This document shows positions 26,083 to 49,810 of a stretch of DNA of 64,000 nt, in pieces. A program made the position numbers and the translations under genes. Below the pieces are notes generated by a model. It was not told the origin of the DNA. It saw nothing but the letters and a program-made list of their open reading frames with translations, and made no database searches. The DNA lies in the NCBI GenBank assembly GCA_964658305.1, contig OZ210885.1, forward strand, positions 2,418,001 through 2,482,000, in the 5' to 3' direction. Each line of letters opens with the position of its first letter. Position 1 is the first letter of the stretch. The DNA comes from Leptogorgia sarmentosa. Lineage: Eukaryota.

Positions 26083-27632
26083 GCCGAGGCATTGCATTAT
26101 AAATGTCACATAAAATATACAGCCTATACGTGTCTTTAAACGGACAAAAGTTCTGTCTGTAGTCACGCTGAAAGCTGGTTGCATAGTTGTAATTTAGTCG
26201 CGCTACAACAGCCACGTTTAAAGGCGTGCAATCACGCGGAAAGCTTGCTTTATAAATAATACATTTTTGGCGGTCCTGCCTTCGCGAGAGAGCTGGACCT
26301 CGCGATCGTCGTTGTAAACAGCGGTCCTGAGCATGCGCAAGCGAAATTAGCCAATCAGAAACCAGAACTTTCAAAGTGAAAACAACAAAAAATCATAAAA
26401 ATGCTATTTGTTTCTAAATATTTTATTCATATAAATTCAGCTCCCAAAGGAACAGATGCAGTATGCATTTTCTGATGCTATGAAATGCCTCACGAATAAT
26501 ATAACAGCTATGAGGTGTCTTGTCAAATTTAAACCATTGGTCAACTGATCATTTTATGGAGTTTAATTCCGAGAAATGTGTACATCTTACTATTTCATGG
26601 GGGGCTGGCAAATGCGTAGTGTGGGCGACGGATTAATGTATAGAATTAGTTCGGTTATATTGAAAAGTTCGGTAATTATTATGTTCCTACTTACCGTTTA
26701 AATCGTAAAAATATTAAATATGTTTCCATGGGTTTTTGGAGATTTTGTACCTGTTTTTCAACGTCGTTTCCATCACCTGCATCGCACGTCGCTCGCTAAT
26801 TCATCAGCGCGTTTCCTCTATATGCCATAGCGCCTTGCAGGTTTCAGTGGCGCCGACAGGGGGGGGCGTGGGAGCTGGGAGAGCGATATTCAGGGGAATA
26901 TTTTTCCAAGTGTAATTTTGATAAGAAATAACACCAGAAGGAGATGAAATGTTCAAGAGATCCGCGAAGTGGAATTGTCTTCTATTTTAGCCCATAATCT
27001 TTCATTGAGTGTATGTGGAAAAATATCCGCAGACATCATTGGCATGGTCTGACTCCTCATTTGCCCCACCTCCAAAATAAAATCCTGGCGACCCTACTGC
27101 CCTACACTGATTTAACAACTCCTCAGGTAACAACCCCCTCTGTTTTCCTGTTAAATTTATCACATCTAATAAAATGTGACTACAACGAAATTTGAATAAT
27201 AATTAAATGAAGTTAAATTTTTTCAAGACAACGGTAAATGATTTTTCATAAAAACTCTTTGAATTCGATGGAGGTCCATTAGAAAATGTCTTGCAGTCCA
27301 AACAAATGAAAATCCAACTTAGACCAGTCACAACTTAAAGTGGAAACAAATTGCGTTGTCATCTTTGTTATTAATAAACGATTAAGGTCATTAACATGCA
27401 TACAATACAGTATGACTCCTCACAGAACAACCGAATTTTTAAACCTTTTTGAAACAATAGGTTATACTTTAACTACTTTTCTATATACACATTGCCACAT
27501 AACGCTTAGTGCCATTTAATTTTCAATTAATTAATTACGTTTGAGCACTTTGTTTGTCCTTACCAAACGCGAGCTAAAAATATTCATTATTGTATACAGG
27601 TGACTGTCCTTAATTGTTCAAGCCTGCAACGT

Positions 27633-28568
27633 TCAATGTCGCCCAATACTACTGCAAATGTTGAAAGCTTGCTTTCGTAATAATGGACTTTGCCAAAAGA
27701 AAATAAGTGAATTAAGACTAGAATTTAACGCGCATACTGTTGCAGCCCAAGATTGCGCAGCTCGGAATTCGGCCGGTTCTGCGTTAATAAAAATTACATT
27801 AAGAATTGGCGCTTGTAAAAAGCACAGATAGAATGTAACCACAACTAGAGCACATGATTTACCCAATTTTAACTCTCTTAAAAATTGTTTTTTCTTCGCG
27901 AACTCAGATGAGCTGTGTTTTACAGATGAATCGGTGAATGCTGTGTCCGAATTTCGCCCTGCAAGATAAATCTTTGTGTAGGCAAATGCATTAAATGCCA
28001 AAGGGATGCATAGATACGCCACACCAAGTATGTTGTATGCTTTTTTTGAAGCAACTGCCAACGGAACTATTACCATCAACAGTACACCTGTCGAACAAGT
28101 ATATATCAAGAATCTTTTCTTCGTCAAATATGTAAGATGAATAATTGGATGTAAGATGCCCATGTATCTCTCAAATGTTATTGCACATGTTGTAGTCAAC
28201 GTTAAGCCAAACGGAACCAGAGCTATCATTGAAAGAACAAAATTTGTAACGCATTTCGCGCTACCCAAGACTTCCCTTGCTCTGAGAAATGTTTCCAAAG
28301 GAAGCGAGATTGCTCCAACTGCCAAATCAACCACTGCTTGAATGAGAATGAGAAAATAACAAAGCCTTTCTTTTAGCTGGGAGCTCCTGGTGATAGTGAG
28401 CACTGAAATACCGTTTAAAAGTATTGTAGGGATCACTAACACGGAATTCGCCACACACACAGCAATTTGATTATTGAAATACTTTCTTGACGGAAATTCC
28501 AGTATTATAAAAGAGACACTGTCGAAAAAAGAGCAAGTCCGTATGTAATCATACGTCGTATTATTCAT
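27633..28568 (-). CDS. Intronless class-A orphan GPCR, copy B, ~311 aa
   Basis: Nearly identical to copy A; protein differences are at the N-terminus (IETFS vs IRTCS) and the upstream ATG is lost. Confidence 0.88.
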   Translation of the reverse strand: MNNTTYDYIRTCSFFDSVSFIILEFPSRKYFNNQIAVCVANSVLVIPTILLNGISVLTITRSSQLKERLCYFLILIQAVVDLAVGAISLPLETFLRAREVLGSAKCVTNFVLSMIALVPFGLTLTTTCAITFERYMGILHPIIHLTYLTKKRFLIYTCSTGVLLMVIVPLAVASKKAYNILGVAYLCIPLAFNAFAYTKIYLAGRNSDTAFTDSSVKHSSSEFAKKKQFLRELKLGKSCALVVVTFYLCFLQAPILNVIFINAEPAEFRAAQSWAATVCALNSSLNSLIFFWQSPLLRKQAFNICSSIGRH

Positions 28569-31500
28569 TTTCCAATGCAAAATAACAACTCTGCTCTTGC
28601 CGCTTTTACTAACAAAGAAATACAGCTATATGAAATAGGTTGACAGATGGAATATTAAAATTGTAGGCAAAGTTAAATATTTCATATAGCTAAAGTAAAT
28701 TATTTACGCAAATTGCTATATGATACTCATTACCGTTTTTCATTGTATAGCAATAAGGATGCAATTGATACTCCCACATATGTGATATTTTGAAAAACTT
28801 TATTTGCATAAATGTGTGTAGTTCGATCTAAAGTAATATGGAATAGGTTCGGATCAATTGACTTTATCGCCACCCATGCGCATGGGGTGGCGTATATTCA
28901 AATGTGAAAATTTTACGATAAAGTCAATTGATCCATACTTAGGTTCTTATATTACATAAGTAATAAGTTCTCGCACAGAATATCGTCTATGAATGTCTTC
29001 AATAATTGCAACCAGATAGTCCGGCAGTGATAATAGTCTGTACTAGGTCCAAAATGGGGCGATCTCGCGTTCCCCGTCTCGACCATTTTCGCTGCATGTT
29101 GAACTTTTAAAAGCGAATATTATCATTGATGTTCAATTATATTTTCCCTGAAGGATTTTCAATCGCGACCAAAAAGCAAATTTTGGACAGCTGTCTTTAT
29201 CCCAATAATGATCGCATTGTTTCCTAAGCTAATATTTAATGACATTTAATTATTTCGAAACGTTGCTTCATAATTAGCCTACTGCCAAAGTGCATATTCT
29301 ATAATGTGTGAGGTAATTTGATACATATGCATATTCAAGTGAATTATTAATTTCTAATCAATGATGCAGTTGACTACTTATACGGGATGTCCAAAAACGA
29401 GTCTTTATAAATTTCGGCACGCTGCTGCGTGCTCGTTTCTGTAGGAAATAAAACGAAATTCGCAAAACATGAGTGAAATTTTCGAGAACAAGTGTAATTA
29501 GCCATTTCTGAATAAAGCAAAGCAAAGGACTGGGTCTAGTCTCTCGGTTTGTAGGGACAAAAATGAGCAATATGCCGAAAATGACATCTAGGAAGTTCTC
29601 CTAAAATTTTTCTAACTTCCTAGGGCCGTTTGTTCAAAAGCGGCCTAGTTTAACGCTGGGTTAACATAAAATTCAAAGAAAATTATCCAACAATTTGTTT
29701 ATGAATTTAGAAATGTTTCGTCAGAAATCTTGTGGAGATCAATGAGAGTTTTCTTTGAAGTTTCCAAGTAAACAGATTTGCAGAAATACACAAACTAAAA
29801 CACTGCTTTAAATTTTAACCCAGGATTAGCCTTTCCTAAAGTTTCTAACTTTGTGAAGTTCTTTGTGCATCCTGAAATGCAGAAATTATAATTAAGGCAT
29901 GTTTTAATATTTATTTAGCTCGTTCACTTTAATTTGTTTCCCCTCCAAGCGTCAACTAGACCCAGTCCTTTGCTCGATTGGGAAATGGCTAATTTCCTAC
30001 AATATAATTGTAGTGCCACAGAATACTAATCAGTAGTTTTTTTTCGTAGGCGCTCTATTCGTCATCATTCGTCACTCAACAATAGTGCGCTAAAGCCCGT
30101 TTTCCACTCCGCCGCCGCCGGCGAAAAAAATTGATAGCGAAACCATTTGTTTACATTCATTTGCCTCTGAGGAATTTTTTTCCAATTTTCTAGTTGTTAA
30201 AAATGTTCAACTTTTGTCTTCCCTATGACTGTGTAAAAGACACTCTCCCCTGTATTTTGAAAATTCAAATTTCAATTTTTTTTCGATTATCCTACATTAT
30301 AAGCACCCAAACAATCTATATCAACCAAAACTTCCGTACCCTGTGTCGCTTGGCGAAGTTGAAATTTGTTCACTTTTTTATACATCCTGCATAAAACAAT
30401 AAATGGTCTGATTTAAATGGACTTTTCAATACTCCACAGTCTTCTCTCTGCTCTGAGACAACGAATTTGACGTCATTTCCGCTATAAAAGTGTTGGGAGA
30501 ATCCCTTGAATTTACAAACTGAAAATATTTCTCAACCAACATGCACATGAACTTAAAATGGATCTCTCTGATTCTCTGGGCGAAAGCTGAAGAATTCAAA
30601 AACTCGAACGAAATGGAACAGTCACTCAAGCAGGGCCGACGAATCATACTGCGCCTTTTTAATTTTGGCGGGAATTTACCATGAATAATTGCATTAATAA
30701 ATTTCGATAACATGCCTTACCTTTATAATTTGAACAAGTAAGCTTAAAAATTGCTATGTATCTAACCAGAACTCCATCTAATCTAAACACATCAATAAAC
30801 GTTATTTTTTTGAAAGCTTTTTTTGCAGATGCATATTTTGTGCAGCACATTACGTGTGGAAGTTGTATTTTTCCAGTGGAAGCTACAAGACCTTTATCAA
30901 TTATGTTTTATGAATATTTAGTGATCATTGTAGGATATGAGGAATGATAAATAATTCAGCATATCCTGCGAGAACCGAATTTAATTATTGTTTTCGTTTT
31001 TAATGTTTATCGGTATAAACGCATGCATTTTAAACAAGATTAACCATTCTTTGACGAATCAAAACTCAAAACTGCTGAATTAGTTGAAATTAAAAATAAT
31101 TATTGAATGAGCTAGGTTGAGCAAGATATGAAGAATTATCGGAGCATCATTTTTTCATTAACGATAAACTCGAACAAATCGAAATAACGGAAAGTTCTAT
31201 ATTTAGTTTAGCCAATAATCTGCTGAATAATGTTTAAAACTTGTATAAACTTGTATAAACATGTTCACACAAAGACAAATATGATCTCTTGCAGTTTTGA
31301 TTTAAATCCCAACCACCTGCTGTTTTCAATCAAATCCTATCATTTGTTACGGCAAGTACGACACGGAGAGAAAATCATGTATGTTGTATAGAAGTGAGTG
31401 ATCTCTAATCTTACGAACAGTCAATCCAGCCGACTGAATTGAAGTCGAAGTAAAATCATTTATGAGAGAAACGTCGCTAGATATCCAACATAACAGCGTG

Positions 31501-33081
31501 GTATTTTTCGTGGGAATTAAGACTTTCAATATTTCATCTAAAACAGGTTTGTTTTAGCAAAATAGAAATTTTCTACTTTGTTTCAGGTCGTTTTTAAATA
31601 ATACTGCTAAACATTTAGTTCGTTTGTAGCGAAACCTGCATGAATACATGCAATTTATTATGTGTAGACATATTGTGAGCCGTCATATGAATGTCACGCA
31701 GCTCTTGCGGGGGCGCAGCACCAAAACAGTTGGTAATTTAATTACAGAATAGTCTTTCACATGTTTCTTAAAAAGTTGCATGTTCAACTGTCTATTTGTG
31801 CGTGCTCGAGAATTAAAAAACATTCCAGTGTTTTCTCGATAAATGAGACATGCCTTTATGTGAAGAAAAATTTTAACTACGTATAATTAAGATAAACCAA
31901 AGCACTTATTACACAATGCATTTGTAGTAAACAGCGGCAGATGGTCTGGTCGTCAGATAACTGAAGTTCAATGAATGGCAAATTATTCATTCTAGAACTA
32001 ATTTTCCGCAATTTATTATTGTTGCTATACAATATTGTATTATTATTATTTTGTTGTCGTACTAAGTTTCGTAATAATATTGCATCGTCATTTCGTTTTC
32101 GAGGATTCGTCAGTTTTATATTTCTAAATATTAGTATGCAACAATGATCATATCATTCCTCTCGGATGAAACAGGCTGTAGTGGCAACTTTTGAGACAAA
32201 ACTATACTATTTGTTTCATGTATGTGGTATCGAGTACTCTTGGAATTTCGTTAGCCAAAGCAGCATAATTTAAATGATATGGTACAGAAACGCAAATCGA
32301 AATAGCGGGAAGTTTTTCAATTCCATATTTAGTTTAGCCAATATTATCTGCTGAACAATGTTTAAAACTTGTATAAACTTGTTCATACAAAGACAAATAA
32401 TATTTTGATCTCATGCTGTTTTTTTATTTAAATCCCAACCACCTGCTGTTGTCAATCAAATCCTTTCATTCGCTACGGCAAGTAGGACACAGAGAGAAAA
32501 TATTGGTTGAAAACCGAATATAACGTATTTTGTGGAGTAGTGTAACACAGGTATCTCCTTTATGCAAAGTTGAGAAATACTATAATGTATCATTCATAAT
32601 TATTCACTAAGCTTTATTTATTCGAGACATGTTTAAATTTCGTATAAATTGAACAAGCCCAGACTTGTCTTTGTATGTCGTATAGAAATGAGTGATCTCT
32701 AATCTTACGAATAGTCAATCCGGCTGACTGAATTGAATTCGAAGTAAAATCATTTATTATTGCAACGTCGCTAGATATCCAACATAGCAGCGTGGCATTT
32801 TTTGTGAGATAAAAATAATATTGGTTGAAAACCGAATATAACGTATTTTGTGGAGTAGTGTAATACAGGTATCTGCTTTATGCAAAGTTGAGAAATACAA
32901 TAATGTATCATTCATAATTATTCACTAAGCGTTATTTATTCAAGACATATTTAAATTTCGTATAAATTGGACAGTAGTATAAGAAAGGCCGATCGAGCCG
33001 GATTTTTGAGGTGGCGCGAGGTGGCGCGAGGTGGCGCGAGGGGGCGCATGCGTATTGAGGCTTTGAACTCATTAGAATATC

Positions 33082-33741
33082 GTGCTGTGATTGGTTGAAC
33101 AGCGTGACGTTACGCTATAGTGTGCTGTGATTGGTTGAACAGCGTGACGTTACGCTATAGCCGCGCTGTGATTGGTTGAACAGCGTGACGTTACGCTATA
33201 GCCGCGCTGTGATTGGTTGAACAGCGTGACGTTATGCTATAGCCGCGCTGTGATTGGTTGAACAGCGTGACGTTACGCTATAGCCGCGCTGTGATTGGTT
33301 GAACAGCGTGACGTTATGCTATAGCCGCGCTGTGATTGGTTGAATAGCGTGACGTTACGCTATAGCCGCGCTGTGATTGGTTGAACAGCGTGACGTTACG
33401 CTATAGCCACGCTGTGATTGGTTGAATAGCGTGACGTTATGCTATAGCCGCGCTGTGATTGGTTGAACAGCGTGACGTTACGCTATAGCCACGCTCTGAT
33501 TGGTTGAACAGCGTGACGTTACGCTATAGCCACGCTCTGATTGGTTGAACAGCGTGACGTTACGCTATAGCCACGCTCTGATTGGCTGAACAGCGTGACG
33601 TTACGCTATAGCCGTGCTCTGATTGGTTGAACAGCGTGACGTTACGCTATAGCCGCGCTCTGGTTGGTTGAACAGCGTGACGTTACGCTATAGCCGCGCT
33701 CTGATTGGTTGAACAGCGTGACGTTATGCTATAGTCACGCT
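33082..33741 (+). repeat. 16 x 41-bp tandem array in the left TIR/subterminal region
   Basis: Unit gccgcgctgtgattggttgaacagcgtgacgttacgctata; about 3 degenerate inverted copies at 40968-41080. Confidence 0.95.
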
Positions 33742-33852
33742 TTGAATGATTGTTGGCATAAAACTATACCGTCGTCATTTAATATCATTGTTTTAGTCTT
33801 TACCCTACAAGAGGCAACACAGCTATCCCTTTGGAGAAATTTATTTTGAGAT

Positions 33853-36800
33853 ATGGCTAAACAACATCAAAAAAGTATCTTGTAAGTTATAATGCACTCT
33901 ATTTGCTTTTAATTGTAACAGTGTTAAGAGTACGGTTTTTTACTTTAGGAGAGATCAATTTATGGAAGATCTTGAGAATTAGGAGAAGAATCGACAACTG
34001 TGCGCGTTGGCAGCTGACGACATGTTTGAGTCTTCGTCGCCTGAAACCCAAGAGCAAGTTCCTGCCGAATGGTGTGACTCGAAAGAACCTGAGAAATTCG
34101 GTTGTGTGTTTGATCAATGTGGTGAAGTGTTCACACGTTCGAACGATCTGAGACGACATATCCGAAGAGCTCACACGGCTGAACGACCACACGCATGTAG
34201 TACGTGTGGTAAGGATTTCAAGACAACAGATGATTTAAGACGCCACAAAAAAAACCATGAAGAAAAAACCTTCGAGTGTCATAAATGCTACAAGAAATTT
34301 GCTCGAAAGGTATTTTTCGTTTACTCTTTGAATTAGGATTATTGATAATGTATAGACTATATTGTATATTTTTTGTTACTAGGATAACCTCGACAGGCAT
34401 TTGAAAATGCACGAGAAAAGGGGAGCCGAACGCGAATATACGTGTAATATCTGTGATAAGGTGTTTCGAGATATATTCCCGCTACAAGCTCATCAACGAA
34501 ATGTGCATAAGATTGTTGCTGGAAAACGGAAAAAGACTGATACTACAACAACCCGAGTAAACCAAGGTAAGTAAAAAGAGTCAATTATATCGTTGAAACC
34601 GATCTTCGAGACTTCGAATTTGAAACTTTTTTTCTCTGTAGGGACATCGAGCGGTGGGCAAGTTAGTGGTCGTAAACGCAAGGCAACTGATGGTACGTCA
34701 GCCCAGACAAAACGAGCTAGAGTAAACGAAGGTTGGTGTAAAAGATTGTGTGTTGACATGATAGTAAAACATATTATTGAAATATTTGCTTCCCTATAGG
34801 AAGTTTAAAGTTTAGGCAAATTTACCGTGTGTTTGAAAAACAATTATAACTTGTTTCCCAGGGACATCGCCTACCATTCCACCGAATCAGTTTCCTCAAG
34901 ATCCAATCTACCCACCACCTGATCTTCCTTCGATACTTCATCGAGAAAACTGGCGCACCATCCGGACTAGACAAAGTCGTGGCAATCGAGTTCAGGACTG
35001 GTATAATTATCGCTTGGGCTCCTTGAATATGGGTGAACTTGTGCAAGATATTGAACGTATATTCCTAGACCAAACGACCGTTTTCAAACTGAACCTTTCC
35101 TTCGGTTTTGTACTATTTAATAATGACACGGAACAGATGCAGTACCACCATTCGTCAGCCAATAACAACCGGGTATTCGAGGCACCGTTTTTGGTTCGCA
35201 GTCGTGAAAATTTGCAACAAATTCGGTCAGCGTTAGAAAATCTGGACGTGTTTTAATGGGCTCGCCAACAACGTCCCAACTCCAAGTGGGTGGTTGCGGA
35301 TATCCTTAACGCGACATTCTACGTGACAAAACTCCGCGATCACCCTATTGGACGTAGTACTCGTTTACCCAAATACGTGCTGGAGAATCCCGCTGTTGTT
35401 TCACTAGATTGTGATAGAAATACTGGATTACCGTACGAGGACAAACTGTGTTTTTTCCGTTGTTTGGCTCTACACCGTGGATGTCACTCAAAAAATTTAG
35501 AACGCGACACACAACATTATTTTGAACGGTACGTTGAAGATGTCGATGATTTTGATGGTGTGACACTTGAAGAACTTCCCGACTTGGAAAAGTTATTTGA
35601 ACTAAACATTTACGTGTATCGACTCGTGGAATGTGAGGACGAAGATACTGAGAAAACCAAGATCGTTGCACAACTTATTCAGAGATCTCACCGTACTTTT
35701 GCCAACAGCATATATCTCAACCTCTATGAAAAGCACTTTAGCTATATCAAGAATATAAATATGTACTCAAAGTCTTACTGTTGCTCTAAGTGTGAGAAGC
35801 TATGGAAAACAGCAAAAGCTTTAAATCAACACGAGAAAACCTGCGAAGCGACTGTCCGACACGTGTTCCCTGGTGGTGTCTATAAAGTCCCACAAACGAT
35901 ATTCGATTTGCTCGAAGACGAAGGTGTTGTGATCCCCGAAGAGTTGAAGTACTTTCCGTATCGGGCAACATTCGACTTTGAGTGCTATTTTCAGAAAGAA
36001 GACGACCACCCTAGAAACACAGCAAAGCTTACATGGGAAGCCGAACATGTCCCGTTGAGTGTCTCTGTTTGCTCCAACGTCCCTGGCTATGATGAACCAA
36101 AGTGTTTTGTGTCCTCTGGCAATACAAAAGAAATGATCAAACAATTTATTGACTATTTGGTACAAATCAGCCAGGAGAGTTATGCATTGCTGTTGCACCA
36201 CTTTTCCGATGTGTTTGAGCAAATCAACCGACGAATGGAAAACAATGGGGTAAGTTGAGCATTTGAATGATTAAATATTATATACTTGAATCTTGAATCT
36301 TGTTGAGACTTGTACTTATGACTATATTATGTTTAGGTGTGTACTGAAAGTAGTAGCGGTGATATAGAAGAGATGTTTGCAGACGAGGCAAATGAGGTAT
36401 ATATGATTTTCAACGGTTTAAAAATGTTCAAGTTCCACATACCATTTAATCCATTCTTATCTTTTAGGATGAAAATGAAAAGACCCACCCTCTCGAGAAA
36501 CTTCGGGACAAGTTGGAACACTATCTCATGGAACTGCCCGTCCTCGGATTCAACTCTGGCAAGTACGACATCAATGCTGCGAAAAACCCCTTCTTTGCTC
36601 ACCTAGTGAAACATGAGGAAGTCCAGTTTGTGATAAAGCGAAACAACAATCACATGTGTCTGAAGACCTCACACTTGAAGTTTCTCGACATTACAAACTA
36701 CTTGGCTCCTGGATTTTCCTACGAACAGTTCCTCAAAGCCTACGAGTGCACGCAGACCAAAGGATATTTTCCATACGAATGGGTCGACTCCCTTGATAAG

Positions 36801-39083
36801 TTAAATTTCCCCACCTTACCACCTCACGATGCGTTTCATTCAGCACTTTCCAACACCGACATCACCAACGAACATTACAGCTATTGTCAAAGCGTGTGGA
36901 ACGATCATGGTATGGAAACTTTTCGAGACTTTTTGGTGTGGTATAATAATCTTGATGTTGTTCCCTTTCTCGAAGCTATTGAAAAAATGAGCCAGTTTTG
37001 GAAAGAACGAAATATCGATATTTTTAAGGATGGTGTAAGCGTGCCAGGTTTGACGATGAAATATTTATTTTCCAATGTTCCCGATATATACTTCTCACTA
37101 TTTACTGAAAAAGACAAAGACTTGTACTATACCATGAAAGATAATAACGTTGGTGGTCCCAGTATTATATTTAACAGATACCACGAAAAAGACAAGACAA
37201 ATATACGCAACGTAGAAATGACAAGAAAGAACTTAAAACCCAAACCCTGCAAGAAAGTGGTCGGTTACGATGCGAATGCTTTATATCTTTGGGCGATCAT
37301 GCAAGATATGCCAACGGGGCAGTATACTCGTCGACTGGAAAGTGACAACTTTAAGAAGAAATGGAGTGGTAAAATGGCTGTAGAGTGGTTGGAGTGGCAA
37401 GCTTACCAACGTGGTGTTAAAATTAGACACCAAAATAACAACACAGAGAAGAGAATTGGAGCTCGTCGCCTTCCAGTGGACGGATTCTGTTCCCAAACAC
37501 AAACGGTGTTTCAATTTTACGGTACATTACTGCGTGGGACACATCGATTAAAGATACCACGTTTGTCGCAAATTGCTAATTTTCCCTTTTCTCGTATTAG
37601 GTTGTTATTGGCATGGCCATGATTGCCACTTAAACCAGGGCAAAGACACCAACACGACGCGGGACAAACCCATGAAAGACTTGCTCGAAGAGACACGGAG
37701 AAACAGTTCTTACATCCGTAAGCAAGGTTTCAATCTTGTCGAGTGTTGGGAATGTGAATGGCGTGAGAGAAAAAAGACGAACAGAGAATTACAACGATTT
37801 ATCGCTACTCGACTACGACGACCCTTAGACAAAGTGAAGACAATGACTCTACAGTCCATTCTCGATGCTGTGAGAGATGAAAAGTTATTTGGGTGCGTAG
37901 AGTGTAATATCCACGTTCCAGAACATTTACGTGAACAATTTTCTGAAATGTGTCCTATATTCAAAAACACCGAGATATCTCGAGACGATATAGGCGACTT
38001 TATGAAAGCCTACGCCGAAGATAACGACATCATGCGTCGACCTCGCAGAAGTCTCATTGGAAGTATGGTCGGTGAAAAAATTTTGTTGGCCACACCTCTC
38101 TTAAAGTGGTATTTGGAACATGGTTTAGAGGTACGTATTACGTATAGGTTAATAAGCATAGGTTTCATTACTAATGTCATTTTTGTTTTTTATAGGTAAC
38201 ACACGTCTATCAGGTGATAGAATATACACCTAAACCATGTTTCAAACCCTTTGGTGACGCTGTATCGAATGCCCGTCGTGCTGGAGATGCTGACCCGGCC
38301 AAAGCAATAATCGCAGATACGATGAAACTCGTTGGGAATTCGTCGTATGGGAAAACTATTACGAACAAAGAGCGCCATCGTCAAGTGAAATTTTGCGACG
38401 ACAACAAAGTGTCAAGCTTAATCAACTCGCCATTTTTCCGTGAATTGAACGCTATCGACGACAACACGTACGAAGTGGAAAGCAGCAAGAAAAAAATTAA
38501 ACTGGACCTGCCTCTTCAAGTTGGATTCTTTGTTTATCAATACGCCAAATTACGTATGTTACAATTTTATTATGATTTTTTAGATAAATATTTAGACAGG
38601 TCGGATTTCGAATATTGCGAAATGGATACCGACAGTGCGTATATTGCCATTAGCGTGGAACGTATAGAAGATTTGATAAAACCTGAAAATATGTGTGAGT
38701 TTGAGAACGATAAATGTAACTGGTTTCCTCGAACGGACACGGTAGAGCATGCAAAATATGACAAGAGAACGCCTGGTTTATTTAAAGTTGAGTGGGAAGG
38801 GGATGGATGTATCAGTCTTTGTAGTAAAACGTATTATTGCTTTGGGGATGGGAAAGATAAATTTAGTTGTAAAGGTGTAAATAAGACAAATAATGTAATT
38901 AACAAGGATAAATATTTAGATGTCATTTTGAGTAAACGTAGTGGGTCTGGTGTAAATAGGGGATTCAGGGTTTTAAATAATAAGATGTGCACATATGTTC
39001 AAGTTAAAAACGCTTTTAGTTATTTTTATCCAAAACGTAAAGTTTTGGAGGACGGTGTAACAACTATTCCTTTAGATATTTAA
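33853..39083 (+). pseudogene. pPolB: C2H2-zinc-finger-fused protein-primed family B DNA polymerase, 9 exons, ~1527 codons, two in-frame stops (33980, 35254)
   Basis: Exons 33853-33881, 33949-34309, 34383-34566, 34642-34731, 34862-36249, 36337-36396, 36468-37521, 37601-38130, 38196-39083. Exo motifs FDFE, GFNSGKYD, YNNLDV; pol motifs YDANALY, KLVGNSSYGK, MDTDS, KGV. Exon 1 is the least certain. Confidence 0.9.
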
Positions 39084-39353
39084 GATTTTGTAAATAGTAG
39101 TTTGTAAATATATCTTCCTATACCTAATATGTGTGTATGACTATCCAAATAACAATCTGTGTTGAGAAAAACTTATATATGCATATATCTAAATTAATTG
39201 GAGACCCTACGGTGGGTATGGGGTAGTTTTGCTTTACGGGACTCGCGGGACTTAATTTGTCCCTCCATGGGACTTTTTTCCTATTTAGTTTTCATGTTGT
39301 AGTTTGTTAAGTTTAGTTTACATCATGCCACGTTTGCGTAAAGACTGCCCGCT

Positions 39354-39782
39354 ATGTGGGAAACAGGGTTTGATGAAACAATGATTCAGCCAGTTGGAGT
39401 AAGCGTCGTACCCCCTAAACCAACTGACGACAAGCTTGTAACACAACCAGAAGACAGCGTAAATTTACCTAACAATGTTGAAGCTGATATTATGGAAAGT
39501 GTTCCTCCTACGATGAAATCTCGAGCCCGACAACTGGTTAAAAAATTGAAAGAAAATAAAGATTTGATTACATGGGACGACAAAGGCCAGATAATCTACG
39601 AGGGAAAACCTGTGGTGGGGAGTAACGTGATAGATCTTGAGAATGATGCCCTACGTCACAGAAAACAATCAGAGATTTTAAAACTGGGGCAATGCATGAA
39701 CTGGAAGAGGAACCCCAATAGTCGACCATACAAATGGTTTAGAAATAAAAAACATAGAACTAAAAGATCGTTTGTGTGTTGA
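39354..39782 (+). pseudogene. Fragment of a conserved Polinton protein of unknown function
   Basis: SVPPTMKSRARQLVKKL...ITWDDKGQIIYEGKPVVGSNVIDL resembles, from memory, a recurrent Polinton ORF; it appears truncated. Confidence 0.5.
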
Positions 39783-39788
39783 ATACAT

Positions 39789-40259
39789 TTATTGCACAAA
39801 AAACCATTTACATATAAAATCCCTTACAAGCGCATCGTTTCATTCCTTGTCGTTCGTAAACATATTAGTAATAGTTGACATGGGTATATTTCTACATCTA
39901 TGTAGTGCATAAAACCGAGACAATACTGTCCACACACATTAGACCATGCTGACTGTAAAGTTAACTTATTATAAATAAAAGTACTGCTATTATCTTCTAA
40001 AAATGTTTTAAAGTTCTCGCTGTAGTAGCTAGGTTTTTGTCCGTAAGAATCCATAAATTCCCCTTTTCGCATCAGCTGTCAGGTAAATAGCTACCCAGTG
40101 CGAGCCAGAACCATCACTAGTATCGACATTCACAACAAATCCCCTGGGCTTTTTTTCTGATATAGTATCCGGTAGACGATCCGAAGACACCACACTCGTA
40201 AACACTGACTTGGTAAACGAATCACTTTGAAGCACGTTTAGAATCTGTAGAGTGTTCAT
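39789..40259 (-). pseudogene. Adenain-like cysteine maturation protease (two frameshifts, one stop)
   Basis: VVNVDTSDGSGSHWVAIY / EFMDSYG / LQSAWSNVCGQYC give the His-Asp-Gln-Cys set across two frames; a third frame gives FYALHRCR...NDALVRDF. Confidence 0.88.
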
Positions 40260-40260
40260 T

Positions 40261-40550
40261 CTAACTGTTAAAATCGCACAGCACGTTGCGGTTAGCGTCG
40301 ATTTCAATAAGGTTTTGAAACTCTCCGAGCACCACGATATTTATAGCCCAGTTAAGAGCGGTACCAAACTGAACTTCCAGTGAGACGTTGCCGTTTTTAA
40401 TAGGTTGTAGATGATCTCTTGAACAAAGATCGGCTGTCAGATCAAACACGAACAATGTGTAACCTACTGTAGCTTTAGGGTACTCGTCGCGCGAGATGCC
40501 ATTACCTTCGTTCTGAAACAGCTTATTCGCACCAGCATACAATGTTTGAA
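40261..40550 (-). pseudogene. C-terminal remnant of the double jelly-roll major capsid protein
   Basis: GNGISRDEY..GYTLFVFDLTAD...GNVSLEVQF..ALNWAINIVVLGEFQNLIEIDANRNV is typical of a Polinton MCP C-terminus. Its stop lies 1 nt before the protease ATG. Confidence 0.82.
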
Positions 40551-43500
40551 AAACTAGATTCATATTAATCTAGTTTTTCATATCTCTGAGGATGGTTCTG
40601 AAATACAATGTTTGAACAATCGTATCTTTAACCATTCGCATCTTTCCCAAGCGCCCATGTCCGTAACACCTTCGATGTAGGCAACCACTTTCACGATAAG
40701 CTGTCGCAGCTTTTCCAAACATATAGCAATCTTGATCGGGGCAAAAGAATTCACAACTCTGCCATTGTATTCAACTCATTCCATTGTATTACGACAAACT
40801 TGTAGGTTCTCCAAGGCTTTTTTCAAACGGTCCAATCCTTCTCTAGCGTCGTCCTGAAAAATTATCGGTTTTTGACTAAAGCAAAAACACCAAACCAAGT
40901 GTAACCCAAACATTGATGTCGGAATCACTTGACAGTGTAGTTATATAGCCTTATGGCAAAAACCATGAACCAATTAGAGCGCGGCTATACTTAACGTCAC
41001 GCTGTTGGACCAATCAGAGCGCGGCTATAGCGTAACGTCACGCTGTGTTCGTCACGCTGTTCAACCAATCAGAGCACGATATTCTAATGAGTTCACGACC
41101 TCAATGCGTATGCGCCACCTCGCGCCACCTCGCGCCACCTCAAAAATCCGGCTCGATCGGCCTTTCTTATACTACTTTGGACATGCCATGCAGACTTGTC
41201 CCGTATGTCGTATAGAAGTGAGTGATCTCTAATCTTGCGAATAGTCAATCCGACTGACTGAATTCGAAGTAAAATCATTTATGAGAGAAACGTCGCTAGA
41301 TATCCAACATAACAGCGTGGCATTTTTCGTAGGGAAGACATTCAATACTTCATCCAAACCAGGTTGGTTTTAAATAATTTACTGCTTTGTTTCTGGTCGT
41401 TTTTAAATAATACTGCAAAACTTTCAGTTCATTTGTAGCGAAAGCTGCACGAAAACATGCAATTATGTGCAGACATTAAGAATCGTTTATACAATATTTT
41501 GGGGGAGCTGACTTCGATGTATGGATTCATAGATTGCGTTAAAATGCATGTAACAGGATATTTGGTGCAGTCTGGGCAATGTTGAATTCTGAGGTTTGTC
41601 GCTTTCACTTTCTCAGAAGTTCTTTCACTTTCGCCTCAAAATAACATGACGTCATTGTGAGCCGTCATATGAAGTGTCACGCAGCTCTTGCGGGGGCGCA
41701 GCACCAAAACAGTTGGTAGTGTAATTACAGAATAGTCCTTCACATGTTTCTTAAAAAAAATGCATGTTCAACTGTCTATTTGTGCGTGCTCGAGATTTAA
41801 AAACATTCCAGTGTTTTCTTGATAAATGAGACATGCCTTTATGTGAAGAAAAATTTTAACTACGTATAATTAAGATAAACCAAAGCACTTATTACACAAT
41901 ACATTTGTAGTAAACAGCGGCAGATTGTCTGGTCGTCAGATAACTGAAGTTCAATGAATGGCAAATTATTCATTCTAGAACTAATTTTCCGCAATTTATT
42001 AAATTAAATAATTGTTGCTATACAATATTGTATTATTATTATTTTGTTGTCATACTAAGTTTCGTAATAATATTGCATTGCCACTTCGTTTTTGAGGCTT
42101 CGTCACTTTTATATTTCTAAATATTATTATGCAACAATGATCATATCATTCTTCTCGCATGAAACAGGCTGTAGTGGCAACTTTTGAGACAAAACTGCAC
42201 TTTTTGTTTCATGTATGTGGTATCGAGCGCTCTTGGAATTTCGCTAGCAAAAGCAGCATAATTTAAATGATAAGGTATAGAAACGCAAATTGAAATAGGC
42301 TTTAGCGGGAAGTTTTTCGATTCCATATTTAGTTTAGCCAATATTATCTGCTGAACAATGTTTAAAACTTGTATAAACTTGTTCATACAAAGACAAATAT
42401 GATCTCCTGCTGTTTTGATTTAAATCCCAACCACCTGCTGTTGTCAATCAAATCCTATATTCCTATCATTTGTTACGGCAAGCACGACACGGAGAGAAAA
42501 TCTTGGTTGAAAACCGAATATAACGTATTTTGTGGAGATGTGTAATACAGGTATGTTGTTCATGCATCCATTCCTGATTATCCAAAACATTGTCTTGCCT
42601 GACTTTAGATTTTGTTCAGTTAAAGTTGAGAAATACTTTTATTAATGTATGATTCATAATATTCACAAGGAAATATTTATTCAAGACAGATTTAAATTTC
42701 GTATAAATTGAACATGCCATGCAGACTTGTTCTGTATATGTCGTATAGAAGTGAGTGATCTCTAATCTTGAGAATAGTGAATCCGGCTGACTGAATTGAA
42801 GTCGAAGTAAAATCATTTATGAGAGAAACGTCACTAGATATCCAACATAACAGCGTGGCATTTTTCGTGGGAATTAAGACTTTCAATCTTTCATTCAAAC
42901 AGGTTTGTTTTAAATAATTTACTGCTTAGTTTCAGGTCGTTTTTAAATTATACTGCTAAACTTTTACTTCGTTTGTAGCGAAAGCTGCACGAAAACATGC
43001 AAATATGTAAACATTAACAATGGTTTATACGATATTTTGGGGGAGCTGACTTCGATGTGTGGATTCATAGATTGCGTTAAAATGCATGTAAGAGGATATT
43101 TGGTGCAGCCTGGGAAATGTTAAATTCTGATGTTTGTCGCTTTAACTTTCTCAGAAGTTCTTTCACTTTCGCCTCAAAATAGCATGACGTCATTGTGAGT
43201 GGTCATATGAAGTGTCACGAAGCTCTTGCGGGGGCCAGAACAAAACAGTTGGAAATTTAATTACAGAATAGTCTTTCACATGTTTCTTAAAAAAGTTGCA
43301 TGTTCAACTGTCTATTTGTGCGTGCTCGAGATTTAAAACCATTCCAGTGTTTTCTCGATAAATGCGACATTCCTTTATGTTAAGAAAAATTTTAACTACG
43401 CATAATTAATTAATTAAGATGAACCAAAGTACTTATTACACAATGCATTTGTAGTAAACAGCGGCAGATGGTCTGGTTGTCAGATAACTGAAGTTCAGTG

Positions 43501-45896
43501 AATGGCAAATTATTCATTCTAGAACTAATTTTCCGCAATTTATTATTGTTGCTATATAATATTGTATTATTATTATTTTGTTGTCATACTAAGTTTCGTA
43601 ATAATATTGCATCGCCACTTCGTTTTTGAGGCTTCGTCACTTTTATATTTCTAAATATTATTATGCAACAATGATCATGTCATTCTTCTCGCATGAAACA
43701 GGCTGTAGTGGCAATTTTTGAGACAAAACTATACTATTTGTACGTGGTATCGAGCGCTCTTGGAATTTCGTTAGCCAAAGCAGCATAATTTAAATGATAA
43801 GGTATAGAAACGCAAATTGAAATAGCGGGAAGTTTTTCGATTCCATATTTAGTTTAGCCAATATTATCTGCTGAACAATGTTTAAAACTTGTATAAACTT
43901 GTTCATACAAAGACAAATATGATCTCCTGCTGTTTTAATTTAAATCCCAACCACCTGCTGTTGTCAATCAAATCCTATATTCCTATCATTTGTTACGGCA
44001 AGCACGACACGGGGATAAAGTATTGGTTGAAAACCGAATATAACGTATTTTGTGGAGTTGTGTGATACAGGTATGCTGTTCATGCATCCATTTTCTGATT
44101 ATCCAAAACACTGATTTTCTGACTTTAGATTTTGTTCAGTAAAAGTTGAGGAATATTCACCAGGAATTATTTATTCAAGACAGATTTAAATTTCGTATAA
44201 ATTGAACATGCCATGCAGACTTGTACTGTATGTCGTATAGAAGTGAATGATCTCTAATCTTGAGAATAGTCAATCCGGCTGACTGAATTGAATTCGAAGT
44301 AAAATCATTTATGAGAGAAACGTCACTAGATATCCAACATAGCAGCCTGGCATTTTTTCGTGGGAATTAAGACTTTCAATCTTTCATTAAAAACAGGTTT
44401 GTTTTAAATAATTTACTGCTTAGTTTCAGGTCGTTTTTAAATAATACTGCTAAACTTTTACTTCGTTTGTAGCGAAAGCTGCACGAAAACATGCAATTAT
44501 GTGTAGACATTAAGAATTGTTTATACGATATTTTGGGGGAGCTGACTTCGATGTGTGGATTCATAGATTGCGTTAAAATGCATGCAACAGGATATTTGGT
44601 GCAGCCTGGGAAATGTTAAATTCTGATGTTCGTCGCTTTAACTTTCTCAGAAGTTCTTTCACTTTCGCCTCAAAATAGCATGACGTCATTGTGAGTGGTC
44701 ATATGAAGTGTCACGAAGCTCTTGCGGGGGCCAGAACAAAACAGTTGGAAATTTAATTACAGAATAGTCTTTTACATGTTTCTTAAAAAAGTTGCATGTT
44801 CAACTGTCTATTTGTGCGTGCTCGAGATTTAGAAACATTCGAATGCTTAATTTTCTCGCTAAATGAAAGATCCTTCTATATTAAGAAAAAACTTAGCTAC
44901 GTTTAAGATAAACCAAAGCACTTATTACACAATGCTTATGTAGTAAACAGCGACAGGTGGTCTGGTCGTTAGGGTTAGGGTTTCTGACATCAATTCAAAA
45001 TAAAACAACTGATTTCAAAAGAAATCAGTTGGCAGATCGCCAAATTATGAATATGCACCCCCAACCCCCCCCCCCCCCCCCACCGCCGCCCAATTAACGT
45101 TCTATCGCCGGCCCTGTGTGAATGGCATAGTTAGAGACAACCTTTGTATTTGGAATTAAACTATGTAAATACAAAAAGAAGCCCACAGTAGTGTTTTCCC
45201 GCCTTATTTGTATTTTCCAGCATTTATCTCTTTTCACGAGTCCAGGTTCTCTTATAGTCAGTTGTGGTCTTGTTGCATTGGTTCTTGTCTTTTCACAAGC
45301 TTCTATCACTCTTCACATTTTTGAGATCAATGATGACTACTCAATGATAACCAACATTATATATATACATAGAACAAGATATACTGTCTAAATATCACAT
45401 TAGATCAAATGTCATTGCCTATATTACTATATATATAGCAAACTTTGTCACCTAAATTTCAATGACCTAATTTATACATTTTGCAATTTGAAAGTCATAA
45501 TTCGCATTCATTTTGAGGAAAATTTAAATCCTCGAAATTTCACACGGCGGAACGTTGACACACAAACTGGTTCTATAAAACTCTCAATTTCGTACGCGTT
45601 AACTACTTTCATAGTTAAATGTAGTTAGCTCTAGAAAACGCATTTCTTAATGGTTAACTTTCGCACGTTTTTATACAACCGGCCCCAGTTGTATACAAGG
45701 CCACCCAGCTTAACCTGGGGGAATTTAAAATTCAAAAATTTCCAGTTTGCCTATAAATGAGAAATATTCTCCAGAATTGCGAAATCTTGGTCGGGAGTGA
45801 AAAGAGCTTTCTTCTTTGGAGTTTCGAAGTATATGGGAATTTAGCTGTACATATATTTGTTGTTTTTTAGGTTACAGTGACGTATCATACCACACA

Positions 45897-48318
45897 ATGG
45901 CGGGAGAAACAGTAGGATTTAACGATCCAATTCATGGCTACATGGAATTTGATCCTTTATTGGTGGAAATCATAGATACTCCATACTTTCAAAGAATGAA
46001 GGACATCAAGCAACTGGGTGGTTCATATTGGATCTTCCCTGGTGCCTCACACAATCGCTTCGAACACTCCCTCGGCACTGCGCACCTGGCTGGGATGATG
46101 ATTGAAAGGTTGAGAGATGTTGGCGATGGTAAGAAATATGTAACGGATGAAGACGTCTTGTGCGTTAAGATTGCAGCACTCTGTCATGTAAGTAATATAA
46201 GTGTAACTTTGTCTATTGATATATTTTTTTAATATTTATATAATAAAGAAAAAGCATGCAAGGTTGTTTGGCTCAGGTATCTCGTCTACTTTAATATCTT
46301 TAATGTACTTCAAATGCCTATGTAAGGAAACTTTTTGTTGCAATAAATTAATTAAAGAACTTTTAAACACATTTAAGTTCTTTATATTTTTTTATTACAG
46401 GGCTTTGTTGATGAGATACTTCAGTTTGAATCTTTTCCTTTGCCCGTTAATGACGTCACACATTGCATGATGAGTCATAAGAAATTAAACTATAAATTGT
46501 TCCTGAAAATAGACGGTTTAGAAAATAAATCGTACGTTTTTGTTTGTCCTTAATCTCTATATTACGTCATTATTTCAAGAATTTGATTCATTGAGGACAC
46601 AGATAACTGGTATTTCACGACAACTCATTATGCAAAATGTGACGTAATTAGCGGGCATGGGAAAAGATTCAAACTGAAATATCGCAAAGCACTGTATAAA
46701 ACATTATAAAAGAACTTGTACTACAATTTATAAGTTCATTCATACATTGTAACAATAATTTTCGTTTCATACGCACTTTAATATCAGATACAAGACAGTG
46801 TAATAAGCCTTGCTTCCTACGAGTACGTTATGTCAATGTTTTTCCATTTCACAGGACTTGGGTCACGGCCCATTCTCTCATGTTTTTGATACGACCATGA
46901 AAAATAAATTGATTGAGTACCATGAATGTAAAAACACCGATGCTGAGAAGTCGTTAGAACATTTGATAAATTGGAAGCATGAAGATGCATCGTGTAAAAT
47001 GTTTGATTATATGATAAAGGAAAACGAAGAACTGAAAGAGGCTTTTGAGAAAAGGGATCTTGACGAAAGCAAGAGAAAGCTCATAAAAGAGATTATTAAA
47101 GGTACAAGCCCTGACGAGATTATTAAACGTGAAAGCCCTGACGACGAAGAATTGAAAAAAGAATTACTGACAAAAAAAGAGATCAAATGGTTTCTGTTTG
47201 AAATTGTGGCTAATAAAGTCAACGAAATCGATTGTGATAAGTTCGATTATTTTGCCAGAGACTGTCACAACCTTGGAATGAAGAGCAATTTCGATCATCT
47301 TCGCTACATTCACAATATCCGGATTAGGCCAAAACCCGGGACGAATGAGCTGCACTTATGCGTACGTGACAAACTTAAATTTAATCTGTACGAGCTCTTC
47401 CACACCCGATGGTCATTACATCACCGCGCTTACCAACATAAGACCACCAAAGCTATCGAGGAAATGATTACCGATGCTTTTGTTCTGCTAGAAGAAAAGT
47501 ACAAGTTCTCCGAGGCTATGTCCGATATGGGGAAGTATGCCATGCTGACCGATAGCATATTTTACGAAATCTTGCACATGAGGGATCGCAATGGCAAAAC
47601 CAATGAAAAAAGCGAAGAAGAGCGAAAAGCGCAAGAAATTCTCAAAAGAGTACAGGAGCGAAAATTATATAAGCTTTATGACGAGTTTCAACCCAGTCAA
47701 GATGATTTCAAGATAGATGATTTAAAAGCTGCTGCAGAAGAAATCGCAAAACTATGCGATCCGGAGGTTGATCCAAAACAATTACTTCTCACTATTGTAA
47801 AAATCGATTTTGGGCAGGAAGAGAAAGACCCTGTAGAATCTGTCATATTTTACGAGAAAAAAGAAACAAAAGAGGAAAATGTTAAGTATACGTACGAAGT
47901 TTGCCTCCATAAAATTGGTAAAGAAGACGTAAGCCGAATGCTCCCAGAACGGTTTATTGAGCGGTACGTTAGAATCTATGGAAAGAAAGAAGATATCGAA
48001 GGTGAAAAGAAAGAAGATATCGAAGGTGAAAAGAAAGAAGATATCGAATGTGAAAAGAAAGAAGATATCGAAGGTGGAAAGAAAGAAGATATCGAAGGTG
48101 GAAAGAAAGAAGATATCGAAGGTGGAAAGAAAGAAGATATCGAAGGTGGAAAGAAAGAAGATATCGAAGGTGGAAAGAAAGAAGATATCGAAGGTGGAAA
48201 GAAAGAAGATATCGAAGGTGAAAAGAAAGAAGATATCAAAGGTAAAAAGAATGAGAAAGAAATTGTTCAGGGCGGTTTTAGAAAGTGGGCGGAAAAATAT
48301 AAACAAATTTCAAATTGA
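45897..48318 (+). CDS. SAMHD1-like: SAMHD1-like HD-domain dNTPase B; exons 45897-46187 and 46855-48318, ~584 aa
   Basis: Same catalytic motifs and intron position as copy A, with a divergent C-terminal half. Confidence 0.92.
47983..48246 (+). repeat. Coding minisatellite, 11 x 24 bp, KKEDIEG(E/G)
   Basis: Unit aagaaagaagatatcgaaggtg(a/g)a, in frame within SAMHD1-like B. Confidence 0.95.
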
Positions 48319-49099
48319 CATGAAATCCTTGAATATCCTTTTCCTGAATAGTCATTTTTGTATATTTTACTCACAGTAATTAAACTTAGGGTAATCACAT
48401 GTAATAATTAAATACATATTTCAGGTTCATTAATTTCATTGAGAACTTTTTTGCTCGATTTGATCATGTTAATTGCAGTATAAGTATCAGTGAGAAAAGC
48501 CGATCGGACAATAATTGACTTTTATCACTAGGGGGAGGAGGCGGAGTCTTTTTGTTAAAAATATTTCACTGACATTGCCCCGAAAACTATTAATTTATTT
48601 AAACAACTAGCTAAATACAAATTCTACTGTTCTATAATATTAGCTTTAATCATCAACCAACGTAGCTTATCGCGCAATTAAAATGTGCACTTCAACAAAA
48701 GTATTTGTTCTTATTACCTTTTTGCTGCCAAATATTGCAATAATGCGATCAATCTCTCATCATTCATGAGAGTGTTTTTTTAAAGCTTTGTCACAATACA
48801 TACTGTAACTATTTTAAATAACCTACTGTTTATAATTTAACAATACAAGAATTTGCAACAATTGTGACAGGGTATTCACAACAGCAATAATATTTTAAAT
48901 TAATATTTATTTGTTTTTGTAGTCGCCCCTGCGTCATTAGGATTGGCAGTTATAGACGGCTGGCGACCGTCCGCGTTATCAAAGCTGCGCAGTGCTTTGA
49001 ATTTTTTTCGGAATCTTTCCTGTACCTGAGCGTACATTTTGCTTGTCTGTCAATCTCTGGGTTCAGTAAAATTTCGAGAAAAAAAATAAAGTTTAAGTT

Positions 49100-49810
49100 T
49101 CATGGTGCTATAACAAAAATTATTATATGGCTGACATAAATGCCGCACGCTGATTGGTTGATTAGCGGTCCGGAAAAAGTCATCTTGCCCGCTCAGGAAA
49201 GTCATCTTGCCCGCTCGTGAAACTATTGTACAAATAAAATTTTTAAGGAAACTAAATCTTATTATGCCGTACCGTGACGATGAAGAACACTCCCCGATTG
49301 AATTTTACTGTCCCAGAAAAACACACGACACAAAATGCTGAGTTTTAAAGTGAAAATAACGGCGAACAAAAGAACAGTTCGAAAACTGTTGCGAACATGA
49401 TTGTTTTCACAGCACTTAAATGGCTTCATTTCGCATCGAACATTTGTTGTTTATCACGACATTTACATTATATTTTTTTATTCAATTTTTTCCTTTGTTG
49501 TATTTTTATTGTTTTGTTGTTGTACAGCAGTGAACGGCCAGAAACCGCCATTCAGTATGCCAGTGTATACGGCTGAACGTTTTAGCAGCGAAAGTGTTTT
49601 CTAGTTCTTTCTACAATGTCAGAACAAATTGCGATCGAACAAAGCCATATAATAAATCCCTTATTAACCTCATTTGCTCTGTCTGTACGGGAAAGTATTG
49701 CCTTCGGTTTTTAACGCACAGACCTCGCTCCTTCGTCGCTCGGTCTGTACGAAAACCCTCAGGCAATACTTTCCCGTACAGACCTCGCACTCGGTTAATA
49801 AGTCCTTAGT
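49100..49810. mobile_element. ~700-bp non-autonomous insertion ending in a long imperfect hairpin (~49662-49803); absent from unit A
   Basis: The flanks align to ~19190-19250. Hairpin arms ttattaacc...gtctgtacgggaaagtattgcc / ggcaatactttcccgtacagac...ggttaataa. Confidence 0.65.

What the first reader, a model, noticed from the sequence alone, without database searches (positions are those of the whole stretch)
33949..35860. Kruppel-type zinc-finger array, NLS and OTU-like segment fused to pPolB
Seen: four C2H2 fingers (first linker TAERP), basic NLS-like motifs (KRKK; RKRK..KRAR), then DKLCFFRCLALH...NLYEKHFSYI and a C2HC finger (CSKC...HEKTC) before Exo I. Known: Polinton pPolBs carry N-terminal terminal-protein and OTU-like protease regions. 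Inference: the fingers may bind the element's own 41-bp or 10-bp TIR repeats, or tether the protein-capped genome to chromatin, and may be released by self-cleavage.
Basis: partly seen in the sequence, partly recalled or inferred. Interest (0 to 1): 0.7.

Follow-up and report, generated by a model that had tools for sequence, protein, structure and literature searches.

The report
Polinton polymerase carries end-reading zinc fingers
A virus-like jumping element has zinc fingers fused in front of the primer protein of its DNA polymerase, and their contact residues are predicted to fit short repeats about 36 bases inside the element's own ends, so the enzyme likely finds its own replication start sites; this copy is broken.

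Summary
The region is the start of a nine-exon pPolB gene in an 8.2-kb, internally deleted Polinton (AGTAGT ends, 6-bp target duplication). This copy has two in-frame stops. Terminal protein plus OTU is published. The fingers occur across the clade (53 of 120 listed homologues; one intronless ORF in a Polinton with all core genes) and I did not find them in print. The scan noted a similar fusion once on other DNA. New here: under a simple recognition code, fingers 3-2-1 predict GAG-GCT-GCG, which fits the terminal 10-mer (7 of 9, starting at +36) but not the 41-mer. In 5 of 13 elements, each with a different repeat, the element's own end scored best for its own fingers (permutation p 0.014, optimistic; two clear misses). 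The best reading is a self-carried, family-specific origin-recognition module on the terminal protein. Binding is predicted, not shown.

The parts
32973..41176 (+). Internally deleted Polinton, 8204 bp, AGTAGT...ACTACT ends, flanked by the 6-bp target duplication TTGGAC
   Evidence: a joint 32966 to 41177 (host repeat without the element) in X2, X4, X5
33008..33047 (+). Left terminal 10-bp repeat, 4 copies, first at +36 from the end; predicted finger target
41112..41141 (-). Right terminal 10-bp repeat, 3 copies, first at +36 from the end
33084..33752 (+). 41-bp array, 16.3 copies, with CCAAT-box-like and CRE-like words (labels recalled); not the predicted finger target
33853..33881 (+). Likely first coding exon (29 nt)
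   Evidence: X2 record 6 has 29 letters ahead of 33949
33949..34309 (+). Exon 2: acidic leader, fingers 1 and 2, first half of finger 3; in-frame stop at 33980-33982
34383..34566 (+). Exon 3: second half of finger 3, finger 4 (non-canonical helix with Pro at +3), KRKK
34642..34731 (+). Exon 4: bipartite basic patch (NLS-like, untested)
34969..35346 (+). Terminal-protein (D1) domain; candidate priming Ser at 35281-35283; in-frame stop at 35254-35256
   Evidence: model; Y-family little-finger matches (4ir1 Z 5.1, rmsd 3.1, 90 aligned); Ser or Thr in 55 of 55 ungapped rows, 7 gaps
35356..35763 (+). vOTU cysteine protease domain; Asp 35440, Cys 35449, His 35734
   Evidence: Z 8.3, rmsd 3.8, 109 aligned; Asp 61 of 62, Cys 62 of 62, His 60 of 62 rows
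35782..35844 (+). Single C2HC finger between OTU and exonuclease
   Evidence: ligands kept in 56-59 of 62 rows
35845..39083 (+). Exonuclease and polymerase part of pPolB over exons 5-9 (introns 36250-36336, 36397-36467, 37522-37600, 38131-38195), with a Vsr-like motif at 37603-37626
   Evidence: spliced contigs in X1 and X2 for the last two introns
39342..39779 (+). Remnant similar to an unnamed core ORF of L011
   Evidence: tblastn E 8e-13
39800..40569 (-). Broken remnants of the maturation protease and of the major capsid protein C-terminus
   Evidence: tblastn and tblastx to L011; L011 ORFs identified

Best explanation
The zinc fingers are the N-terminal part of this Polinton's terminal-protein/OTU/polymerase polyprotein, and they likely bind the short repeats 36 bases inside each end, which would place the terminal protein and polymerase on the replication origin. 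Shown: the fusion, the domain order, the folds, the repeats and their position. Inferred: fingers 1-3 read the 10-mer; the 10-11 bp period puts sites on one face of the helix; Ser at 35281 primes synthesis; OTU cuts between terminal protein and OTU, so fingers and basic patches stay on the genome ends; helices and repeats change together, making origin use family-specific. This copy is dead and would need proteins from other copies.
For: Fusion: phase-consistent exons; a chain of spliced contigs in X1 and X2; 11 of 120 listed homologues carry both PF00096 and PF03175; L011 has one intronless 1636-aa ORF with fingers, PF03175 and Vsr beside ATPase, integrase, capsid and protease. Target: predicted GAG GCT GCG against GAG GTG GCG, 7 of 9; GAGGnnGCG occurs 7 times in the two ends and once in the rest of the window. 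Covariation: L011 predicted GAG GAG GYn, repeat matches 8 of 8 at +33; L001 GYC GAG, 6 of 6 at +36; L006 GCG nAG, 5 of 5 at +36; L074 GAW nAG KCW, 7 of 8 at +48. These five elements are 35-66% identical in the OTU region. Permutation p 0.014 for 13 elements and 0.05 without the window; scrambled codes reach the score 10 of 300 times; reversed finger order gives -0.6 against 7.65.
Against: No binding data. The window's match alone is not significant: 2.7% of random 10-mers, 7.8% at 70% GC and 15.7% of shuffles of the unit do as well, and finger 2 misses two of three bases. Of 13 elements, L040 and L078 miss (ranks 11, 12), L038 is uninformative, and L002, L003, L008, L058, L071 rank 3-6. L002's fingers fit L008's end better than its own. 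The best-single-site statistic gives p 0.07. One-per-group subsets give p 0.002-0.16, 11 of 16 under 0.05. The code was fixed after I had compared pairs by eye, and the termini of L002, L006 and L008 were chosen partly by spacing, so the p-values are optimistic and the +33..+37 test (p 0.003) is partly circular. L037 has an 11-bp array that does not fit its atypical finger by eye. Binding to the ends would not by itself show a role in replication.
Confidence: 0.5

Rival explanations
1. The fingers do bind the element's own terminal repeats, but for another step: autoregulation of the adjacent pPolB promoter, holding the ends for integration or excision, or packaging.
For: The same covariation data. 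The left repeats lie directly upstream of the 41-bp enhancer-like array and the pPolB gene.
Against: The first site starts at +33 to +37 in the window, L001, L006, L008 and L011 and sits at both ends. The fingers are on the same chain as the priming domain rather than on the integrase.
Confidence: 0.23
2. The fingers and basic patches are a sequence-tolerant DNA or chromatin tether plus nuclear import signal for the protein-capped genome, like the N-terminal domain of phi29 terminal protein, and the repeat matches are chance among G-rich words.
For: The phi29 TP N-terminal domain binds DNA without sequence specificity and localises the genome (PMC4974454 passages). Arg-rich helices predict G-rich sites and the ends are G-rich. 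There are misses in L040 and L078 and partial fits in five elements.
Against: Own-end preference survives permutation, scrambled codes and reversed order. There are perfect fits to non-G-rich words such as GTCGAG in four copies in L001.
Confidence: 0.21
3. The finger exons are a separate or recently captured host zinc-finger gene, not part of the polymerase.
For: Database names such as 'Zinc finger and SCAN domain-containing 22'. No single contig spans from fingers to polymerase.
Against: Intronless single ORFs in L011 and P0093-type proteins. Fingers lie upstream of the OTU in 53 of 120 listed proteins and in 46 of 62 loci with enough upstream DNA. No SCAN family appears among the Pfam labels.
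Confidence: 0.04

Closest known systems
Polinton pPolB with TP-vOTU-Exo-Palm architecture (PMC11161782; read: sections 5 and 6, passages on vOTU)
   Same: Domain order, TP fold related to the Y-family little finger, Ser next to Pro before the last strand, intact Cys/His dyad.
   Different: Adds a C2H2 array before the TP and a C2HC finger after the OTU. The main text has no occurrence of 'zinc' or 'C2H2'; supplement not seen.
Alpha adintovirus PolB (OTU plus pfam03175; PMC8502044 passages) and Vsr-bearing pPolB2 of marine Polintons (10.1101/2023.08.22.554363 passages)
   Same: OTU, PF03175 in relatives, Vsr-like insertion (L011 Vsr E 5e-4, below the curated cut-off).
   Different: Neither main text mentions fingers on PolB ('finger' 0 occurrences). 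This gene has eight introns.
Adenovirus origin: core origin bound by pTP-Pol plus host factor sites NFI and NFIII/Oct-1 (PMC2685984 passages)
   Same: Sequence-specific sites a short way inside the terminal repeat that serve protein-primed replication (works-like analogy; recruitment details recalled).
   Different: Adenovirus borrows host factors. Here the reader of the sites is predicted to be part of the element's own terminal protein.
phi29 terminal protein N-terminal domain (PMC4974454 passages)
   Same: DNA-binding and localisation module N-terminal to the priming domain; NLS described in such proteins.
   Different: Basic, helical and not sequence-specific; the TP fold is unrelated.
Ziftr zinc-finger genes of some adintoviruses (PMC11071296 passage)
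   Same: Zinc-finger proteins encoded by adintoviruses.
   Different: Described as separate genes, not fused to PolB, with no target named in the passage seen.

Membership tests
Polinton/Maverick | Terminal inverted repeats with (AGT)2 ends and 6-bp target duplication | tested here: met
Polinton/Maverick | Protein-primed family B polymerase | tested here: met
   DFE, YDANALY and DTDS motifs; homologues with PF03175. The window's single exons gave no Pfam hit.
Polinton/Maverick | Capsid and maturation protease genes | tested here: met
   Broken remnants only; identity via L011
Autonomous Polinton | Integrase, ATPase and an intact polymerase | tested here: not met
   No match to L011's integrase or ATPase in 39084-40990; two stops in pPolB. 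L011 holds these genes.
vOTU protease | OTU fold with catalytic Cys and His | tested here: met
   22 of the top 23 rows are titled OTU or deubiquitinase/ubiquitin protease
vOTU protease | Cleavage between TP and OTU | not testable with these tools
   Inferred from PMC11161782; a conserved Pro-Ile-Gly lies at the boundary (57-59 of 62 rows)
PRD1-like terminal protein (D1) | Four-stranded sheet with two helices, little-finger-like, Ser or Tyr before the last strand | tested here: inconclusive
   Topology and Ser fit. Z 5.1-5.3 to little-finger domains is below the level the tool calls clear, but 4ir1 is the same entry the paper uses.
Classical C2H2 DNA-binding array | Tandem C2H2 fingers with short linkers and Arg/Asn/Asp at helix positions -1, 3, 6 | tested here: met
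   Fingers 1-3; finger 4 is atypical
Classical C2H2 DNA-binding array | Sequence-specific binding | not testable with these tools
   Prediction only
KRAB or SCAN zinc-finger host genes | KRAB or SCAN effector domain | tested here: not met
   No such Pfam family on exons 2-3 or among homologue labels

The most novel reading that the evidence does not exclude
A large clade of animal Polintons carries a reprogrammable origin-recognition module on its terminal protein. The finger helices and the terminal repeats co-evolve, so each family replicates only its own ends (an iteron-like specificity system) without the host factors that adenoviruses need.
Probability: 0.45. Interest if true: 0.82.

Novelty: new variant of a known kind. 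Interest (0 to 1): 0.66.

Why it matters
How Polintons recognise their ends to start protein-primed replication is not addressed in the papers I read. This gives a named protein module, a named DNA target and several natural finger/repeat pairs, so the question can be tested with short proteins and oligonucleotides. If true, it would explain how many Polinton families share one genome without cross-replicating and which ends deleted copies need. It also offers a natural series of C2H2 code changes. Some database 'zinc finger and SCAN' entries in cnidarians are Polinton polymerase fragments.

Tried and rejected
No whole genome is held for this window, so copy number was not measured. No RNA holder is listed; the six runs are of unrecorded kind. 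A closer view of the splice joints in the finger exons was not obtained, so that link rests alone. Viral-contig scans confirmed no relative, nor did the phage collection. The genome-contig scan gave five loci but no usable finger/end pair. The search for right-hand ends found only L074's. Dropped from the 13-element test: L076 (same ends as L074), L056 (finger 2 missing), L013, L018 and L082 (terminus doubtful), L009 and L083 (terminus but no fingers found), L037 (atypical finger, terminus unsure), and all loci without a terminus. L071's OTU row is out of frame and was ignored. The 41-mer as target was rejected (3.6 in the real array; a 7.7 from an artificially doubled unit is a junction artefact). 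The one-per-group values printed are invalid (division by zero) and were replaced. A Foldseek PDB search was not run. Literature: searches found no paper describing fingers on Polinton pPolB or their target. The library lacks most subscription papers and Repbase Reports, and supplements were not read, so a prior mention is possible. PMC248603 is not held.

Full report
Setting. The finding lies in an 8204-bp element at 32973-41176 with AGTAGT/ACTACT ends and the 6-bp target duplication TTGGAC. It is inserted in a copy of a roughly 1.5-kb host repeat. Contigs of X2, X4 and X5 join 32966 to 41177, which shows that repeat without the element; the repeat is multicopy, so this need not be the same locus. 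The closest named proteins are from Paramuricea clavata at about 80% identity, so the host is likely an octocoral-like cnidarian (inference). Beyond the polymerase gene only remnants remain: a piece of an unnamed core ORF, the capsid C-terminus and a broken protease, identified through L011. No integrase or ATPase match was seen in 39084-40990. The element is a deleted, non-autonomous Polinton.

Gene model. Nine exons (33853-33881, 33949-34309, 34383-34566, 34642-34731, 34862-36249, 36337-36396, 36468-37521, 37601-38130, 38196-39083) are bounded by GT-AG introns with consistent phases and total 4584 nt. Two in-frame stops (33980-33982, 35254-35256) break this copy. All four laid runs list another letter at the second stop at full depth, so that stop looks private to this copy.

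Splicing evidence. The runs are not on record as RNA, but X1 and X2 (one study) hold contigs that skip the last two introns. They have zero depth at the listed intron places 34586-34622, 34848 and 36277, where X4 and X5 have cover. For the finger exons the evidence is a chain. X1 record 1 and X2 record 6 lie on exon 2 and each runs on for 230 letters, and their depths (11.2, 10.1) recur at 34653. X1 has a joint 34567 to 34656. One depth value (18.3 in X1, 7.85 in X2) covers both 34697 and 34867. No listed contig spans fingers to polymerase, and the contigs come from several family copies.

Domains. Fingers: Pfam zf-C2H2; the best solved relatives are ordinary DNA-binding arrays. The model of 34864-35860, read with X at the stop and 62 aligned sequences, has mean pLDDT 87.8 and pTM 0.58. 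Residues 165-300 match viral and cellular OTU domains (best Z 8.3, rmsd 3.8, 109 aligned). Residues 42-159 match Y-family polymerase little fingers (4ir1, Z 5.1; weak on its own). PMC11161782 (sections 5 and 6 and passages read) gives this little-finger-like fold as the terminal protein and proposes that vOTU cuts between TP and vOTU. Catalytic Asp, Cys and His are kept in 61, 62 and 60 of 62 rows. The candidate priming residue is Ser or Thr in all 55 ungapped rows. A Vsr-like motif places the enzyme near the pPolB2 type of 10.1101/2023.08.22.554363 (passages; L011 Vsr E 5e-4).

The fusion is general. Of 185 hits the best 120 were listed. Of these, 53 have at least one finger upstream of the OTU (59 raw, less six rows where the OTU motif was missed and the downstream finger was miscounted); many others are partial. 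Eleven carry both PF00096 and PF03175. Named hosts include Paramuricea, Actinostola, Exaiptasia and Branchiostoma. Of 80 metagenome loci kept out of 160, 62 had at least 1000 nt upstream and 46 of these had a finger 350-1800 nt ahead. L011 has one intronless 1636-aa ORF with fingers and polymerase, followed by ATPase, integrase, capsid and protease genes. The helices vary strongly between families.

What the fingers may read. I used a small fixed code: Arg or Lys at -1 and 6 for G; Asn, His, Asp at 3 for A, G, C; Ala, Ser, Thr, Val, Glu at 3 for pyrimidine; Gln, Asp, Thr, Asn at -1 for A, C, T, A/T; Lys at 6 also T. It is partly recalled and partly in line with Table 1 and passages of PMC1920264. 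Only fingers joined by linkers of up to 8 residues were used. Window helices RSNDLRR, TTDDLRR and RK|DNLDR (bar = intron) predict GAG GCT GCG. The terminal 10-mer reads GAG GTG GCG, 7 of 9, starting at +36 at both ends. The 41-bp array scores 3.6 against 7.7. Alone this is weak: chance 3-16%.

Covariation test. I collected 12 related elements with fingers and a left end: nine with an exact AGTAGT, three inferred. With the mean of the three best sites in the first 130 nt, the own end ranked first without ties in 5 of 13: window, L001, L006, L011, L074, each with a different word. Ranks were 3-6 for L002, L003, L008, L058 and L071, 11 and 12 for L040 and L078, and L038 tied everywhere. Permutation p was 0.014 (0.05 without the window); scrambled codes reached the score 10 of 300 times; reversed finger order scored -0.6 against 7.65; one-per-group subsets gave p 0.002-0.16. 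The single-best-site version gave 0.07. A test limited to sites starting at +33..+37 gave p 0.003 and 2 of 300, with subsets at 0.004-0.27, but it is post hoc and partly circular. In the L001/L002/L003/L008 group (82-95% identical) the repeat words GTC, GAT, GAG and TAG recur in the ends and among the finger predictions but are not always paired in the same copy. This may reflect recombination or decay, or a loose code. The code and set were fixed after inspection by eye, so all p-values are optimistic.

Mechanism. Most likely, the polyprotein enters the nucleus by its basic patches (inferred). Fingers 1-3 bind the phased repeats inside each end (predicted) and position the TP serine at the terminus for priming (inferred). 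OTU then parts the polymerase from the finger-TP piece, which stays on the 5' end (inferred from PMC11161782). This would work like the NFI and Oct-1 sites of the adenovirus terminal repeat (PMC2685984 passages; recruitment details recalled), but with a self-encoded reader. The phi29 TP has an N-terminal DNA-binding domain without specificity (PMC4974454 passages), which is the model for the tether rival.

Novelty. TP-vOTU-pPolB is known. Fingers on it and a target for them were not found in searches or in word look-ups in PMC11161782, PMC8502044, PMC8097293, PMC3671162, PMC11071296 and the nematode preprint (passages only, no supplements). Verdict: a real, clade-wide variant of a known polymerase with a testable and moderately supported origin-recognition role; this copy is dead.

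Noticed in passing
window 35377-35559: All four laid runs hold a contig that skips 183 nt including the OTU catalytic Cys motif; it stands in the DNA-like runs too, so a deleted family variant exists. P0030 lacks a similar stretch.
   Followed up: no
window 33084-33752; L013 1023-1519: The 41-bp array carries CCAAT-box-like and CRE-like words (labels recalled); L013 has 40-42 bp repeats with similar words upstream of its polymerase. Possibly a host-factor enhancer array.
   Followed up: partly
window 32999-33007; L001, L006, L040 ends: A CCGG followed by a T-rich run sits just before +36 in several families; it could be a conserved origin element.
   Followed up: no
window 33853-39083; L011 2688-7598: This pPolB gene has eight spliceosomal introns, one splitting a finger, while L011's is intronless.
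   Followed up: partly
window 34152, 34197, 34226: Among the 40 listed differences of 430, three fall in fingers 1-2: two at helix positions +5 and +1, which are outside the three scored positions, and one at a zinc ligand in two runs.
   Followed up: no
window 15311-24549 and 45761-53984; 5260-7406 and 27205-29350: Two segmental duplications (about 30 kb and 22 kb apart) carry HD-domain genes (one with a 24-bp repeat at 47979-48251), a haemolysin-III-family membrane gene exon and a rhodopsin-type GPCR.
   Followed up: no
L074 509-6268: Another deleted Polinton of about 5.8 kb with long terminal inverted repeats and a finger array.
   Followed up: partly
L081-L085: Five Polinton-like contigs sit in bacterial MAG records, probably host DNA carried into the bins.
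   Followed up: no
P0004, P0006, P0010, P0012, P0018, P0019, P0030, P0041: Entries named 'Zinc finger and SCAN domain-containing 22' are Polinton pPolB gene models without a SCAN label.
   Followed up: partly
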